Made by a program: the position numbers and the translations under genes. Below the pieces are notes generated by a model, which had not been told where the DNA came from, did not search any database, and saw nothing but the letters and a program-made list of their open reading frames with translations. 64,000 nucleotides of DNA from a virus (taxonomy: Duplodnaviria; Heunggongvirae; Uroviricota; Caudoviricetes): the IMG/VR virus record IMGVR_UViG_3300015177_000008, positions 47,519 through 111,518 of that record, one strand, 5' to 3'. This document shows positions 37,329 to 50,800 of this stretch, piece by piece. How positions within the stretch are numbered: the first letter of the stretch is position 1; each line of letters opens with the position of its first letter.

Positions 37329-37657
37329 TGATGCCCGCCAATTGGCGGGCATCTGTTCTCTGTAAAGGTGTCTGGCATCGTCTGGTTCGTTAACGTTTAC
37401 TAAACCAATGGTGACAAAAATTAGTTATCTTTGAAAAATAAAGGTTGCATGAAAAGAAGGGGTATGCGTTAATAGCATCGTTGGTTTGCAAGACAGACCT
37501 TATGTAAGCAGTTTTAGTAAAGCAGTCTCAGTTCAGTGTTATCTTCTGATTTCCCTTCTTCGTGAGTCTCCTCCTTAAGTGCCTAAGTAAGTCCCAATCT
37601 ATACAGATCAAATTCTCGCCGCACTATGTGGCTCACAAAATTAAGAAGGTAATATCT

Positions 37658-37873
37658 ATGTCTAATAAAATGACTGGTTTAGTAAAATGGTTTAACTCTG
37701 ATAAAGGCTTTGGCTTTATTTCTCCTGCTGATGGCAGTAAAGATGTTTTTGTACATTTTTCGGCAATTCAGAGTAATAATTTCCGCACTTTGGAAGAAGG
37801 CCAGCAGGTCGAATTCTCTATCGAGAATGGGGCTAAAGGCCCAGCAGCAGCAAATGTCGTTGCTCTAAGCTGA
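37658..37873 (+). CDS. Cold-shock protein, CspA family
   Basis: [38 protein letters not shown]... (RNP1/RNP2 motifs); long 5' leader of about 160 nt; track ORF starts upstream. Confidence 0.85.
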
Positions 37874-38151
37874 TTCAACGCTGATGATCCTCATTTCTAC
37901 AATAACGAAGACGGTGTAAGCCTGAGTGGATAGATTTGTAGGATTGTACAAGTTGAATAAATTAGCATGGTAAGGCCATGCTAATTAAATCGACACAACG
38001 GCCAGTTTATTCCATAAAAGTGAATTGCCCATTGTGGCGAAATGCGGGGTTGCCGCATGAATAGTCAAAGGCAGAAGCTAACTGCCGGCATGGCAAAACA
38101 AAGTGCGTAAGAGGAGTGACTTCCTCAACAAGCGCCATAATTCTTTATAAA

Positions 38152-45878: not shown

Positions 45879-46265
45879 ATGTCTGACAACAAGATTGAAT
45901 TTATAGAAAGTCGCTATGCTGCTTTTATCGCAGGGCTGATTGAATCCTCACCTATGAGTCAGGCCCAAATAGCCAGACTTATTGGTTATAAAAATGCCAA
46001 CAACCTTTCTTTAATTAAAAGTGGCAAAATTCCTTTGCCTATCGATAAGGTTCGTCCGCTGGCGCTGGCACTGGGTATTGAGCCAAGTCGTCTTATGATG
46101 ATGGTGCTGGAAGAACGCCAACCCGAACTTGCAGCATTTTTATACAAAGAAGGCACTGCTCCTCTTAACGAGGACGAAAAACAGGTTCTTGCTGCATATA
46201 ACGAGCGATTCGGTAAAGAGAAAGGCGCATCACAAAAGGTTGTTGAGGCCATAAAGTCTCTATGA
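45879..46265 (+). CDS. XRE-family helix-turn-helix transcriptional regulator (candidate repressor)
   Basis: HTH MSQAQIARLIGYKNANNLSLIKSG; plus-strand gene convergent with the recombinase. Confidence 0.65.
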   Translation: MSDNKIEFIESRYAAFIAGLIESSPMSQAQIARLIGYKNANNLSLIKSGKIPLPIDKVRPLALALGIEPSRLMMMVLEERQPELAAFLYKEGTAPLNEDEKQVLAAYNERFGKEKGASQKVVEAIKSL

Positions 46266-47363
46266 AAAATTTACACGAATAAGCTCTGTTGATAGACGAT
46301 CTCCCTTAAATTTGTGGTCAATTTCGTCTAAATCCGGTTGCTCTACGATTGATGCGATGTACGTCGAGAAACTTTCTAAGGCGTCTCGCATCTCGTCCAT
46401 ATAATCGTGCCGGTCGTAGACCCGATCTATCCCCTCAAGACTGTGGTTCATGATTTTGCGTGATACCTCCTGGCTTATGCCTAATGCTGGGAAGTAACTA
46501 CGCGCAGTACGGCGCAAATCTCGGGGTGTAAATGGCTCAAGCTCCATCAGTTCTGGTCGTTCCAGAATACGACGTAATGCCTGGGCTATTGCCACTTTAG
46601 ACATAGGAAGGTCTTTCCCGATTTTTTTATTCGAAGGCACGAGCCACTGGCTGTCTTTACCGTATTCGAACAACTCTTCAATGCATGTGCGCATTAATGT
46701 GCTTAAAGGCAGAGAATGCTCACGGGCAGATTTGTTCCTCTTGCCTTGATTCCAAACCCCACGCTTAAGATTGAACTCACTTTTTTTAGCCCGCAGTACT
46801 TCGTCAGGTCGTCTTGCGGATACAAGACATAGCCTGGCCGCCCATTTTGTACCAGCGCACACATTGAAGTAGTCCCATATATTCCAGAACACCCATACCT
46901 CTGCGTCAGTCAGCTTCCGCTCGCGGGGCGTGGGCTTTGCGCCACCGGCAACTTTGTTAAGTGACATATCGTTTAACGGTGACACGTCTATCATCCCCTG
47001 GAAGGCGCACCAGCTAAGGAACTGCTTCATTAGAGAGAAAACGCGGCGGCCCATAACAATTTTGCCATCCAGTATTAGTGGGTTGACCAGTTGGTTCACC
47101 ATGAACCTATTAATGTCACTTACTTTTACATCGGCAATGTGCGGCAAAACATGTATCAAAATACAATGAACAGCGATCTCTGGCCGACGTCTGGTTATCA
47201 GCAGAGATAAGCGAGTGAATAACATGAATGCGTCCGAGAATCTCAAGTCATTGCTGACCTGGGAGATCATAACGGCCTGCATTTGAGATGCTCTTTCGAG
47301 ATACTCTATCGCCTCTTTTGAGGTGTTCTCCGCAGCGCGTGCTCTGTCAAAGCTATTTTTCAT
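46260..47363 (-). CDS. Tyrosine recombinase/integrase
   Basis: C-terminal catalytic region PFTPRDLRRTARSYF...NHSLEGIDRVYDRHDY (R, H-x-x-R and Y signature). Confidence 0.7.
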   Translation of the reverse strand: MKNSFDRARAAENTSKEAIEYLERASQMQAVMISQVSNDLRFSDAFMLFTRLSLLITRRRPEIAVHCILIHVLPHIADVKVSDINRFMVNQLVNPLILDGKIVMGRRVFSLMKQFLSWCAFQGMIDVSPLNDMSLNKVAGGAKPTPRERKLTDAEVWVFWNIWDYFNVCAGTKWAARLCLVSARRPDEVLRAKKSEFNLKRGVWNQGKRNKSAREHSLPLSTLMRTCIEELFEYGKDSQWLVPSNKKIGKDLPMSKVAIAQALRRILERPELMELEPFTPRDLRRTARSYFPALGISQEVSRKIMNHSLEGIDRVYDRHDYMDEMRDALESFSTYIASIVEQPDLDEIDHKFKGDRLSTELIRVNFS

Positions 47364-49271: not shown

Positions 49272-49302
49272 AAAAAAGGGGCCGAAGCCCCTTTGAATTT
49301 TG
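49272..49302. terminator. Bidirectional rho-independent terminator
   Basis: AAAAAA ggggc cgaa gcccc TTTGAATTTT. Confidence 0.7.
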
Positions 49303-49368: not shown

Positions 49369-49446
49369 CACAGCGTTGAGCGGTCTGGTTTATGTTAGCG
49401 GAGTCTTAATCGAGTTGATTAAAAGGCCAAACCGCTCAACGCTGTG
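49369..49446. repeat. Long hairpin A (16-bp perfect stem, 46-nt loop), 2 nt after tRNA-Ser
   Basis: cacagcgttgagcggt ... accgctcaacgctgtg. Confidence 0.55.
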
Positions 49447-49448
49447 TC

Positions 49449-49535
49449 TGGCGGAGAGTAATGGAATCGAACCATCATCGCTTGCGCAATGGGACGGTTT
49501 TCAAGACCGCTTGAGCACCATGCTCCCTACTCTCC
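49449..49535 (-). tRNA. tRNA-Ser (anticodon UGA), type II
   Basis: Manual fold: acceptor GGAGAGT/ACTCTCC, anticodon loop CTTGAAA, long variable arm, T-loop TTCGATT, discriminator G, encoded CCA. Confidence 0.7.
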
Positions 49536-49679
49536 GGCCGTTGTGGTGGCCGGTACTGAATCTCCGGCATACGGTGCAGCCAATTAGGACTACGGACGAT
49601 CACCGCTCGCGAAAGGGAAGATTTGCGGCCGCATTTCCCTAACATCCAAGAAAGCTATCGCATCAGTCTGCGAATCCAC

Positions 49680-49759
49680 CACAACGGTAAGATCACTACC
49701 TTTCGACCAGTCATTGTGCACATGAACGACGATTAACCGTAATGATCTTATCGTTGTGT
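49680..49759. repeat. Long hairpin B (16-bp stem, 1 mismatch)
   Basis: cacaacggtaagatca ... tgatcttatcgttgtg. Confidence 0.5.
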
Positions 49760-49809
49760 TGTGAAGCCAGATGCTTATCTTCTGGTTGCTTCAAAGAGCT
49801 GCACTTCCT

Positions 49810-49897
49810 CACAACGGTAAGAGCACTGGTCTGACTCTATCGATTTACGGGCTTGTGGGTCAGTATCGCCGATTCGCCCAATGCTCTTACCTGTTGT
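49810..49897. repeat. Long hairpin C (16-bp stem, 1-nt bulge), 2 nt after tRNA-Thr
   Basis: cacaacggtaagagca ... tgctcttacctgttgtg. Confidence 0.5.
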
Positions 49898-49899
49898 GT

Positions 49900-49975
49900 T
49901 GGTGCCGGTTAACGGGATCGAACCGCTGACATCCTGCTTACAAGGCAGGCGCTCTACCAACTGAGCTAAACCGGC
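49900..49975 (-). tRNA. tRNA-Thr (anticodon UGU)
   Basis: Manual fold: acceptor GCCGGTT/AACCGGC, D-arm GCTC..GAGC, anticodon stem CCTGC/GCAGG with loop CTTGTAA, T-loop TTCGATC, encoded CCA. Confidence 0.8.
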
Positions 49976-49977
49976 AT

Positions 49978-50052
49978 TGGCGATGGTGGGTGGATTCGAA
50001 CCACCGACCAGTTGGTTAACAGCCAACTGCTCTACCGCTGAGCTACACCATC
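49978..50052 (-). tRNA. tRNA-Asn (anticodon GUU)
   Basis: Manual fold: acceptor GATGGTG/CACCATC, anticodon stem GTTGG/CCAAC with loop CTGTTAA, T-arm GGTGG TTCGAAT CCACC, encoded CCA. Confidence 0.8.
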
Positions 50053-50319
50053 AATTCAGCACTGACAGTATTTATTACTCAACAGTGCCAATCGCGGCGG
50101 TGTTAGTTTCTGCCAGGAAACGCACCGCTACTTGCACTTTTCGTTAGTGCCAGACGCTTTCGACTTCGCTCAATAGTAGAAGGCAAAATCTTTAAGTAGA
50201 TGATGTTTCTGAGGACAGCACCTACTTTGTAATTTATACAATGTGATGTATGGAATCATTTGTTGTGAAAACAGGCACCAATGGCAACAGTGGTTAAACC
50301 TACACAACAATCCTGTCTT

Positions 50320-50441
50320 CACAACGTTGAGGCCACTACTCCGATTGAATGTTTGCCCAACATGTTACATATCAACGCTCGCCGGTATCTCTGTGAATAG
50401 AACCTTAGAATTGATAAAAATGTAATGGCCTCAACGTTGTG
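50320..50441. repeat. Long hairpin D (15-bp perfect stem, 92-nt loop)
   Basis: cacaacgttgaggcc ... ggcctcaacgttgtg. Confidence 0.5.
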
Positions 50442-50800
50442 TGCTGGCTAACCATACCAGCCGGGCTACGTCGCCGCTTTTTAACCCAGTATAAACGACA
50501 TAATTGAACAAAATGACGTAACAGGATGGGCGGTCAGTGGCTAAGAATCCGGGAGTCATATGGAGTTGAAAATATACCAACCGCCCATTCTGTTACTTCA
50601 TCGGAGGGAACATTCATGTTCCCTCCTGCGTTCTGCAATCACACTCGCTCAGTGTGTCCCATTTCGGTAACGAGGCTGGAAACTGACCTCGCTGGTGTTT
50701 GGCTTATTAGGCTACTGCCAGATAGACTTCTTCGTTTGCACTTGTATTTAAGTTCAAACAGTCGCGTCTCAACGAAAACAAAGTCATCTTATACACAAAA

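What the first reader, a model, noticed from the sequence alone, without database searches (positions are those of the whole stretch)
49369..50441. tRNA cluster interleaved with a family of long hairpins sharing the stem sequence CACAACG-T-AG
Three tRNAs (Ser-UGA, Thr-UGU, Asn-GUU) lie on the minus strand. Hairpins A and C start exactly 2 nt after the CCA ends of tRNA-Ser and tRNA-Thr; B and D lie between and upstream. All have 15-16-bp stems with related sequence but unrelated 46-92-nt loops. They could be processing or termination structures for the tRNA transcript, small RNAs, or recombination/homing target sites; conserved stems with variable loops are unusual for simple terminators.
Basis: seen in the sequence. 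Interest (0 to 1): 0.6.

Follow-up and report, generated by a model that had tools for sequence, protein, structure and literature searches.

The report
Conserved RNA hairpins flanking phage tRNAs
The hairpins are real: they belong to an unannotated but widespread family of 20-base-pair RNA stem-loops that sit directly against the ends of tRNAs in an untranslated tRNA/small-RNA operon of P1-like and related temperate phages, and most likely act as processing or spacer modules rather than terminators.

Summary
Three tRNAs (Asn, Thr, Ser) and four long hairpins lie on the minus strand of an E. coli phage-plasmid (Cyrano/CMS-2020a type).

What the evidence shows:
- The stems are about 20 bp and share the base CACAAC/GUUGUG.
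- The family recurs in P1, P7, D6, other phage-plasmids and prophages of Pantoea, Erwinia, Rahnella, Ewingella and Citrobacter. I found 56 distinct stem variants.
- 15 of 22 stem pairs show compensatory changes.
- In 32 distinct hairpins lying 3' of a tRNA, the tRNA-sense strand has 50 G·U pairs and no A·C mismatch. The helix is therefore selected in the transcript.
- Hairpins begin between 2 nt before and 2 nt after the tRNA CCA end.
- None has a U-tract. The one intrinsic terminator lies downstream at 49275-49294.
- Within orthologous groups the stems are almost invariant while the loops drift.
- No Rfam family matches, and the P1 record does not annotate them.

Best reading, with the mechanism inferred: double-stranded processing or insulating modules, of RNase III substrate size, that delimit tRNAs and small-RNA domains in a polycistronic stable-RNA operon.

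Rivals: loop-specified small RNAs, protection of the untranslated transcript from Rho, or DNA recombination joints.

In passing, the same operon carries a conserved tmRNA-like tag frame (ANEEVYLAVA) with no tRNA-like domain found.

The parts
49978..50052 (-). tRNA-Asn (GUU)
   Evidence: ARAGORN; Rfam tRNA model 75.5 bits.
49900..49975 (-). tRNA-Thr (UGU)
   Evidence: ARAGORN; Rfam tRNA model 73.1 bits.
49449..49535 (-). tRNA-Ser (UGA), class II tRNA with an unusual D arm
   Evidence: ARAGORN. In Rfam it scores on the tRNA-Sec model at 46.6 bits against a threshold of 47.
50320..50441 (-). Hairpin D: 20-bp stem, 82-nt loop, 268 nt upstream of tRNA-Asn
   Evidence: -47.8 kcal/mol, z -6.5. Orthologues in 8 loci keep the stem while the loop is rich in indels.
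50262..50325 (-). Second domain after D. It is closed by GUUGUGAAGACAGG / CCUGUUUUCACAAC and shares the GUUGUG of D's 3' arm.
   Evidence: Inverted repeat I17; fold of the leader.
49810..49898 (-). Hairpin C: 20-bp stem with a bulged A; starts 1 nt after the CCA of tRNA-Thr
   Evidence: -37.3 kcal/mol, z -5.4. Same position and same stem in P1, P7 and D6, with different loops.
49759..49809 (-). Conserved domain after C: boxA-like GCUCUUUGAAGCAA (49786-49799), then a small hairpin CCAGAAGAUAAGCAUCUGG (49767-49785), ending in CACAA
   Evidence: Read from the sequence. Nearly identical in P1, P7 and the L008-type loci. GCTCTT occurs only twice in the operon, 25 nt apart.
49680..49758 (-). Hairpin B: 20-bp stem with one A.C and one U.G; 39-nt loop
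   Evidence: -32.7 kcal/mol, z -5.2. In CMS-2020a (L004) it directly follows tRNA-Thr.
49536..49679 (-). Domain X between B and tRNA-Ser: GUGGUGGAUUC + small hairpin ... GCCGGAGAUUCAGUACCGGC + CACCACAAC. Its architecture resembles the 5' domain of the prophage sRNA STnc100.
   Evidence: I22; fold. Identical module in P7 and CMS-2020a. Paralogous modules in P7 and P1 give sub-threshold Rfam STnc100 hits (43 bits, E 2.7e-6; 33 bits). The window copy itself gives no Rfam hit.
49369..49446 (-). Hairpin A: 20-bp stem (base CACAGC/GCUGUG), 38-nt loop; starts 2 nt after the CCA of tRNA-Ser
   Evidence: -41.2 kcal/mol, z -9.5. In 10 orthologous variants the stem is invariant and the loops have diverged.
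49275..49294 (-). Intrinsic terminator of the operon (AAAGGGGCUUCGGCCCCUUU followed by UUUUGUUG)
   Evidence: Terminator scan.
50513..50601 (-). Long hairpin E: 22-bp stem (base GUAACAG/CUGUUAC), 45-nt loop. Possibly a diverged member of the family.
   Evidence: I2; fold. It occupies the same position as P1's first hairpin, GCACAACAGGUAAGGGCGCUGG.... It has one A.C on the minus strand, so membership is uncertain.
50704..50749 (-). tmRNA-like message segment: A-rich lead, resume-type GCA codon, frame ANEEVYLAVA, then UAA UAA
   Evidence: Weak Rfam tmRNA hits aligned exactly on the tag region. The peptide is conserved, with synonymous changes, in P1, P7, D6 and other phage-plasmids. ARAGORN reports no tmRNA.

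Best explanation
The hairpins are members of a conserved family of RNA stem-loops, which I call CACAAC hairpins. They belong to a long untranslated, polycistronic stable-RNA operon of temperate enterobacterial phages. In this window the order on the minus strand is: tmRNA-like segment, hairpin E, D, tRNA-Asn, tRNA-Thr, C, B, STnc100-like domain X, tRNA-Ser, A, terminator.

The hairpins fold in the transcript into 20-22-bp helices that sit directly against the mature ends of the neighbouring tRNAs and small-RNA domains.

The most likely mechanism is that they are processing and insulating modules. A double-stranded stem of about two helical turns is the size of an RNase III substrate, as in the processing stalks of rRNA operons and the inter-cistronic sites of T7 early RNA. 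Such a stem keeps adjacent structured RNAs from misfolding into each other. Cleavage in or at the base of the stem, together with RNase P at the next tRNA and 3' trimming, would then release tRNAs with short trailers and free the neighbouring domains.

The stem is the functional part and the loop is largely a spacer. The shared CACAAC/GUUGUG sequences also act, secondarily, as joints at which modules are gained, lost and swapped between phages.

Shown here: the structure, the strand, the conservation, the placement against tRNA ends, and the lack of terminator features. Inferred: which nuclease acts, and that cleavage occurs at all.
For: - Structure is real and selected. Across 33 non-redundant stems, 15 of 22 pairs show changes on both sides and 90% of cells are paired. 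None of 500 shuffles reaches this, and versions with the 3' partner slid by 1-3 columns reach only 32-53% paired.
- Selection acts on the tRNA-sense strand. With orientation fixed by the tRNA alone, 32 distinct hairpins lying 3' of a tRNA contain 50 G.U pairs and 0 A.C.
- Placement is precise. Hairpins start 2 nt before to 2 nt after the CCA end (Thr +1; Ser +1 or +2; Asn -2 or +1). In L044 the 3' GUG of a hairpin overlaps the 5' end of tRNA-Arg.
- They are not terminators. None has a U-tract, and a separate terminator lies at 49275-49294.
- The stem is the constrained part. Within orthologous groups the 20-bp stem is almost invariant, the loops differ by many indels, and no consensus loop structure is predicted.
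- The context is always untranslated RNA arrays. In P1 they lie in the C1-controlled ban operon leader with trnA and trnT. In lambdoid-type prophages they lie downstream of the repressor gene and a promoter, ahead of the first long ORF.
- The whole region is highly structured: z -3.9 and -5.8.
- No phage protein family co-occurs with the hairpins in all contexts, which points to host factors.
Against: - No cleavage data are available. RNase III involvement rests only on helix length and on analogy.
- Sequence conservation at the helix base is stronger than a sequence-tolerant nuclease would need. Positions C1, C3, A4, C6 and A12 are invariant, and whole arms are identical among orthologues whose loops have diverged.
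- Similarity of the 3' arm to the 16S rRNA RNase III stem (shared CAGUGCUC) scores no better than the best of 200 shuffles.
- Some loops carry conserved motifs, which hints at loop function: AAGACUCCGC in A-type, CACAGAGGC in D-type, and T-arm-like GGUUCGAAUCC in P1's hairpin C.
- Hairpins also occur in arrays that contain no tRNA at all, so tRNA maturation cannot be their only role.
Confidence: 0.45

Rival explanations
1. The hairpins are themselves stable small RNAs (regulators or decoys). The conserved stem would be a scaffold or protein handle, and the variable loop would carry the specificity, for example by kissing-loop antisense pairing as in P1 C4 RNA, or as cargo released by cleavage of the stem.
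For: The design of conserved stems with unrelated loops. The blunt placement between tRNA ends would release them as discrete molecules after normal tRNA processing. Sub-families keep short loop motifs. The neighbouring domain X resembles STnc100/PasD, which a preprint treats as prophage-encoded base-pairing sRNAs with seed regions and targets.
Against: Loops drift and gain or lose segments among close orthologues, with no conserved loop structure. No complementary target of 13 nt or more exists elsewhere in the 64-kb window. Host targets could not be searched.
Confidence: 0.2
2. The hairpins protect or promote transcription of a long untranslated operon. They would deny Rho a loading site, or act with the boxA-like element as part of an rrn/nut/put-like antitermination device. 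They could also act as 3'-exonuclease barriers that stabilise the upstream tRNAs.
For: The arrays always lie in untranslated leaders downstream of early promoters. In P1 they precede tciABC, trnI and ban; in the prophages they precede an HD-phosphatase gene. A boxA-like GCUCUUUGAAGCAA plus hairpin follows C and is conserved from P1 to this plasmid. The commonest 3' arm contains UGCUCUUA, which matches the lambda boxA core as I recall it from the literature.
Against: In this window the operon ends at a terminator right after hairpin A, with no downstream gene to read into. The boxA-like string inside the stems is base-paired, whereas, from what is known of these factors, NusB and NusE bind single-stranded RNA. 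The count of GCTCTT is not significant on its own. Generic structure would not need a conserved sequence.
Confidence: 0.13
3. DNA-level elements: recombination sites, cassette joints or miniature transposon-like inverted repeats that assemble and shuffle tRNA/RNA modules.
For: Indels between relatives start and end at CACAAC repeats. Cyrano has Thr-ACACAAUU-Ser where the window has C, B and X. CMS-2020a lacks C plus its second domain. Some stems are chimeric between types, for example L065. CACAAC/GTTGTG is one mismatch away from the integron attC core pattern RYYYAAC/GTTRRRY, recalled from the literature.
Against: The G.U versus A.C asymmetry of 50 to 0 on the tRNA-sense strand, and the alignment with mature tRNA ends, are RNA-level signatures. 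No recombinase is shared across contexts. There are no target-site duplications and no dispersed copies: the only matches to the stem motif that have an inverted partner lie inside the operon. No attC-like unpaired spacer is present.
Confidence: 0.07
4. Chance palindromes, or simple intrinsic terminators.
For: None beyond their position after tRNAs.
Against: Fold z-scores, motif enrichment, covariation and conservation across many phages. No U-tracts.
Confidence: 0.01

Closest known systems
RNase III processing stalks of rRNA operons and the inter-cistronic RNase III hairpins of phage T7 early RNA
   Same: Long double-stranded stems (about 20 bp or more) inside an untranslated or polycistronic transcript. 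They lie next to mature RNA ends and are co-transcribed with tRNAs. A boxA-like element is nearby.
   Different: In rRNA operons the stalk encloses a 1.5-2.9-kb functional RNA; here it encloses 38-82 nt of poorly conserved loop. From memory, the T7 sites carry internal loops; these stems are almost perfect. Cleavage has not been tested. The shared CAGUGCUC with the 16S stalk is not statistically significant.
STnc100 / PasD prophage sRNAs (Rfam RF02076)
   Same: The domain that follows the hairpins (X) has the same layout: a 7-bp closing stem, then (A)AUNC, a small hairpin, a variable region, a CCGG-loop-CCGG hairpin, and the closing stem. Copies in P7, P1 and a Pantoea-type prophage give sub-threshold RF02076 hits.
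   Different: Canonical STnc100 has its own promoter, a seed tail and a terminator, and no CACAAC hairpin upstream. The window copy of X is not detected by the Rfam model. The CACAAC hairpins themselves are not part of the model.
Integron attC sites
   Same: Imperfect palindromes of variable length (about 60-140 bp). They have conserved outer cores ending in ...AAC / GTT..., a variable centre and strand-specific folding.
   Different: No unpaired central spacer, and no extrahelical bases apart from one bulged A in type C. No integron-type gene cassettes lie between the hairpins. The only integrase gene nearby (46260-47363) matches the general Phage_integrase family and was not examined further. 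The hairpins are aligned to tRNA ends, and the selected strand is the transcript.
Bacterial intergenic repeat hairpins (REP/BIME, ERIC, Neisseria Correia elements)
   Same: Co-transcribed inverted repeats that form long RNA hairpins. From the literature, some are RNase III or RNase E substrates and affect transcript stability.
   Different: Those are dispersed around the chromosome in many copies. These are confined to one RNA operon per phage and are positioned to the nucleotide against tRNAs.
Stable RNAs of unknown function in the phage T4 tRNA cluster (species 1 and 2), and P1 C4 antisense RNA
   Same: Small structured RNAs made from the same precursor as phage tRNAs. From the literature, C4 is released from its precursor by RNase P.
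   Different: No sequence or Rfam relationship was found. C4 lies in the immI region, not here.

Membership tests
Intrinsic (Rho-independent) terminator | GC-rich hairpin followed immediately by a U-tract | tested here: not met
   The scan finds a strong site only at 49294-49275, plus a 5-bp stem inside domain X (49673-49658) and one upstream at 51097-51084. None of the hairpins A-D is followed by a U-run.
Any curated RNA family (Rfam 15) | Covariance-model match | tested here: not met
   Nothing matches the hairpins, even at E up to 10 in a 1.65-kb search. The same holds for the P1, P7, CMS-2020a and L078 loci at E up to 1.
RNase III substrate | About two turns (20 bp or more) of largely uninterrupted double-stranded RNA | tested here: met
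   20-bp predicted stems; 20-22 covarying pairs.
RNase III substrate | Staggered double cleavage in vivo or in vitro, and fit to the published base-pair preference matrix | not testable with these tools
   The matrix of PMC6212723 is given only in a figure. No RNA-end data are available.
Integron attC | R''/R' cores RYYYAAC / GTTRRRY | tested here: not met
   ACACAAC / GTTGTGR have one mismatch on each side (sequence). The consensus is recalled from the literature.
Integron attC | Unpaired central spacer, extrahelical bases, and an adjacent IntI integrase with cassette ORFs | tested here: not met
   The stems are continuous. No ORF of 100 aa or more lies between the hairpins. The only integrase gene (46260-47363) matches the generic Phage_integrase family. 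No integrase is shared across the other contexts compared.
Miniature inverted-repeat transposable element | Terminal inverted repeats, target-site duplication, and dispersed copies | tested here: not met
   Inverted repeats are present. The flanks differ (caa/agg, aga/ata, gca/aag). The only matches to the stem motif that have an inverted partner lie inside the operon.
STnc100 (RF02076), for domain X only | Model score at or above the gathering threshold of 47 bits | tested here: not met
   The window copy gives no hit. P7 scores 43 bits, P1 33 bits and L078 26 bits, all covering model positions 31-147 only.
tmRNA, for the segment at 50704-50749 only | Tag reading frame with a GCA resume codon, A-rich upstream region and hydrophobic C-terminus | tested here: met
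   ANEEVYLAVA followed by two stop codons. The peptide is conserved in four variants with synonymous changes.
tmRNA, for the segment at 50704-50749 only | tRNA-like domain with an acceptor stem, T arm and 3' CCA | tested here: not met
   ARAGORN finds no tmRNA. The Rfam tmRNA models align only to the tag region and the helix after it.

The most novel reading that the evidence does not exclude
The CACAAC stem may be a sequence-specific handle for an RNA-binding or RNA-cutting factor that has not been identified. On this reading the operon is a phage 'RNA toolbox': an array that releases tRNAs, STnc100-like domains, a tmRNA-like tag template lacking a tRNA-like domain, and a set of variable-loop hairpin RNAs. 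These would act on the host, for example as decoys or guides in translation or in anti-defence. That would be a new class of modular phage RNA array, present in the model phage P1 itself, where part of it is currently annotated as the protein genes plp and upl on the opposite strand.
Probability: 0.15. Interest if true: 0.8.

Novelty: new variant of a known kind. Interest (0 to 1): 0.6.

Why it matters
P1 is one of the best-studied phages, and P1-like or SSU5-like phage-plasmids occur in about 14% of complete E. coli genomes (778 of 5426). Yet roughly 1.5 kb of their tRNA region is an unannotated, densely structured RNA array.

Recognising the hairpin family:
- gives a testable model for how phage tRNAs with structured trailers are matured;
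- explains the mosaic gain and loss of tRNAs and RNA modules among these plasmids;
- suggests that the P1 ORFs plp and upl overlap conserved RNA genes on the other strand;
- points to further RNA functions in the same transcript, namely an STnc100-like domain, a boxA-like element and a tmRNA-like tag frame.

These could bear on phage counter-defence against tRNA-cleaving immune systems.

Tried and rejected
- Rfam searches at gathering and at permissive thresholds on the window and on related loci gave nothing for the hairpins.
- I searched the window for sequences complementary to the loops and to the other RNA domains. Only chance-level 11-13-mers turned up.
- I looked for a protein family that co-occurs with the hairpins across phage-plasmid and prophage contexts. 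None is shared. The neighbouring ORFs are an integrase, a glutaredoxin, an ATP-dependent ligase and unknowns.
- I compared the stem arms with the E. coli rrnH leader and spacers. The 3' arm shares CAGUGCUC with the 16S processing stalk, but the score equals the best of 200 shuffles.
- An RNase III sequence-rule comparison was not possible, because the motif is given only in a figure.
- Literature searches for P1 ban-operon RNAs, phage tRNA hairpins and phage tmRNA-like RNAs found no description. The P1 genome paper is not held.
- The 'DicF-like' label from the P1 record could not be transferred to the window. No Rfam DicF hit appears, and the P1 feature is a different sequence.
- tRNA-remnant origin of the loops: P1's hairpin C has a perfect T-arm-like GGUUCGAAUCC, but the window loops have none and the tRNA model does not hit them.
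- I considered and rejected ribozyme, retron, CRISPR-repeat mimic and MITE readings. There is no catalytic core, no reverse transcriptase, no repeat match and no target duplication.
Full report
**What the window is.** The region matches E. coli phage-plasmids of the Cyrano / CMS-2020a type. These are circular elements of about 108 kb. One E. coli plasmid is 99.9% identical over the whole query. Parts of the region are shared with P1, P7, D6 and Klebsiella phage-plasmids. 778 of 5426 complete E. coli genomes carry a match, and 811 of the 825 matching places are on plasmids.

**Check of the observation.** ARAGORN finds three minus-strand tRNAs: Ser-UGA 49449-49535, Thr-UGU 49900-49975 and Asn-GUU 49978-50052. 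The repeat scan and my own scan find four long inverted repeats with related arms: A 49369-49446, B 49680-49758, C 49810-49898 and D 50320-50441.

As minus-strand RNA, each folds into a single helix of about 20 bp. The z-scores run from -5.2 to -9.5 against dinucleotide shuffles. The stem motif is enriched, with 13 matches against 3.9 expected and no shuffle reaching 13, and 8 of the 13 matches are the hairpin arms.

C begins 1 nt after CCA, not 2.

**Strand.** On the minus strand each stem has a U.G wobble at about stem position 17 (pair 18 of the alignment). On the plus strand this is a C.A mismatch.

I generalised the test by fixing the orientation from the tRNA alone and counting G.U and A.C equally as candidate pairs. 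The 32 distinct hairpins that directly follow a tRNA in the loci collected contain 50 G.U and 0 A.C. The helix is therefore selected in the tRNA-sense single strand.

The hairpins are also aligned to mature tRNA ends to within 2 nt on either side of the CCA. In one locus a hairpin's 3' GUG overlaps the first bases of tRNA-Arg. Taken together, this strand is the transcript, not single-stranded DNA.

**Extent of the family.** An exact-pattern scan of viral contigs returned 96 loci. A stricter pattern scanned over one genome per species returned Rahnella, Pantoea, Erwinia, Ewingella, Citrobacter and Escherichia, plus two uncultured-genome bins.

I extracted 56 distinct stem variants. In an alignment of 33 non-redundant stems:
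- C1, C3, A4, C6 and A12, and their partners, are invariant;
- 15 of 22 pairs show changes on both sides;
- 90% of cells pair, against 78% in shuffles and 32-53% in versions with the partner slid by 1-3 columns.

These stems were selected for pairing, so the percentage paired is partly built in. The double-sided changes are not.

P1 itself has several members. One follows trnT directly. Others lie between trnT and tciA, opposite the annotated ORFs plp and upl. One lies upstream of trnA. P7 and D6 are similar. None is annotated, and no Rfam family matches.

**What evolves and what does not.** Among orthologues of D (8 sequences) and of A (10 sequences), the 20-bp stems are almost invariant. The loops differ by many substitutions and indels, and no consensus loop structure is predicted. 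The stem is therefore the constrained element. Short loop motifs do persist: AAGACUCCGC in A-type and CACAGAGGC in D-type. In P1, some loops contain T-arm-like hairpins.

**Architecture of the operon.**
- Each of D, C and B is followed by a second domain whose closing helix reuses the GUUGUG of the hairpin's 3' arm and ends in another CACAAC (I17, I22, I23). Module boundaries are thus marked by CACAAC in direct repeat.
- The domain after B (X, 49536-49679) has the layout of the prophage sRNA STnc100. Paralogous copies in P7 and P1 give sub-threshold RF02076 hits (43 bits, E 2.7e-6; 33 bits). Canonical STnc100 genes have their own promoter and terminator and no CACAAC hairpin. A preprint treats STnc100 and PasD as related prophage-encoded base-pairing sRNAs with distinct seed regions and targets.
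- The domain after C carries a boxA-like GCUCUUUGAAGCAA plus a small hairpin. It is nearly identical from P1 to this plasmid.
- The operon ends at an intrinsic terminator at 49275-49294.
- None of the CACAAC hairpins has a U-tract.

**Module shuffling.** Relatives differ by whole modules, and the breakpoints lie at the CACAAC repeats.
- Cyrano has Thr-ACACAAUU-Ser where the window has C, its second domain, B and X.
- CMS-2020a copies carry an extra tRNA-Tyr, lack C, or have other hairpin-plus-X units.
- One group has Asn-hairpin-Ser-hairpin, with the hairpin overlapping the CA of the CCA.
- Arrays without any tRNA occur in lambdoid-type prophages, just after the repressor gene and a promoter, and ahead of an HD-domain dNMP phosphatase gene.
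- No protein family is common to all these contexts.

**Interpretation.** The data establish an RNA-level, stem-centred, conserved module placed at the ends of stable RNAs in an untranslated polycistronic transcript. The best-fitting mechanism is a processing or insulating stem. Its length is that of an RNase III substrate, and its position is where an endonucleolytic cut is needed to free a tRNA 3' end that would otherwise be blocked by a stable helix. The overall design (boxA-like element, long stems, embedded tRNAs) parallels rRNA operons. Which nuclease acts is inference.

The strength of the sequence conservation suggests either a sequence-specific partner or homogenisation by recombination. 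This is why I give the model only 0.45.

The alternatives are loop-specified small RNAs (0.2), shielding of the transcript from Rho or from exonucleases, or antitermination (0.13), and DNA recombination sites (0.07). The last is contradicted by the strand asymmetry, although the repeats evidently do serve as recombination joints. Chance or simple terminators are excluded.

**Seen in passing.** About 260 nt upstream of D, the same transcript carries a segment that weak Rfam tmRNA hits align to exactly over a tag-like frame: AAAUACAAGU|GCA AAC GAA GAA GUC UAU CUG GCA GUA GCC UAA UAA, which reads ANEEVYLAVA. From memory, the E. coli tmRNA tag is ANDENYALAA.

The frame is conserved as a peptide, with synonymous changes, in P1 and D6 (ANDDLMMVAA), P7 (ANDDLMMAAA) and other phage-plasmids (ANDNQYLAVA). 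No tRNA-like domain was found. I found no description of it. A paper on the tmRNA database mentions only the converse case, a phage tmRNA without a tag frame.

An E. coli chromosomal CRISPR array holds a 33-nt stretch identical to 50421-50453, which overlaps the 5' arm of hairpin D.

**Verdict.** This is a real, widespread and apparently undescribed RNA motif family. It is present even in phage P1, and its role is plausible but untested. It is moderately interesting in itself, and more so as part of a larger unannotated RNA operon.

Noticed in passing
window 50704-50749 (minus strand): tmRNA-like message segment with a GCA resume-type codon and the frame ANEEVYLAVA followed by UAA UAA. The peptide is conserved, with synonymous changes, in P1/D6 (ANDDLMMVAA), P7 (ANDDLMMAAA) and other phage-plasmids (ANDNQYLAVA). 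No tRNA-like domain was found, ARAGORN reports no tmRNA, and Rfam tmRNA hits are only weak.
   Followed up: partly
window 49767-49804 (minus strand): boxA-like GCUCUUUGAAGCAA directly followed by the small hairpin CCAGAAGAUAAGCAUCUGG. The arrangement resembles a nut or rrn antitermination site. It is nearly identical in P1, P7 and other phage-plasmids. The commonest hairpin 3' arm also contains UGCUCUUA.
   Followed up: partly
window 49536-49679 (minus strand): Structured domain X between hairpin B and tRNA-Ser, with the layout of the prophage sRNA STnc100/PasD: a 7-bp closing stem stacked on a CCGG-loop-CCGG hairpin. Paralogues in P7 and P1 give sub-threshold RF02076 hits; the window copy gives none.
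   Followed up: partly
window 50421-50453: A 33-nt stretch overlapping the 5' arm of hairpin D is 100% identical to a segment annotated as CRISPR in the E. coli chromosome NZ_LR778147.1 (hit H61). It is presumably a spacer acquired against this kind of plasmid.
   Followed up: no
L003 (phage P1) 2602-3171: The P1 ORFs upl and plp are annotated on the strand opposite the conserved hairpins, the boxA-like domain and part of trnT. Their apparent conservation may therefore reflect the RNA elements rather than protein coding.
   Followed up: no
window 50513-50601 (minus strand): A further 22-bp hairpin with a 45-nt loop and the base GUAACAG/CUGUUAC. It occupies the same position as P1's first CACAAC-type hairpin. 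It has one A.C on the minus strand, so family membership is uncertain.
   Followed up: partly
window 49449-49535: The tRNA-Ser(UGA) is atypical. It scores on the Rfam tRNA-Sec model at 46.6 bits against a threshold of 47, not on the general tRNA model. The D6 record notes that tRNAscan-SE did not call its amino acid.
   Followed up: no
window 37480-37898 (plus strand): Full-length match to the cspA thermoregulator (RF01766, 185.7 bits). The plasmid therefore carries a cspA-type cold-shock leader.
   Followed up: no
L078 4876-5342; L232 7302-7940: Tandem arrays of CACAAC hairpins plus STnc100-like domains, with no tRNAs, in prophages (L078 from a viral contig, L232 from Citrobacter). They lie in the untranslated leader just upstream of an HD-domain deoxyribonucleoside 5'-monophosphate phosphatase gene. 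In L078 they follow the CI-like repressor gene, a terminator and a promoter that carries a palindrome.
   Followed up: partly
L003 (phage P1) 3054-3140 and 2570-2920: Loops of the P1 hairpins contain T-arm-like elements: AGGGUUCGAAUCCCU, and the repeated motif UAACGGG(G/U)UCAUAUCCCAAUCUAC. This hints that some members carry tRNA-like or otherwise functional cargo.
   Followed up: no
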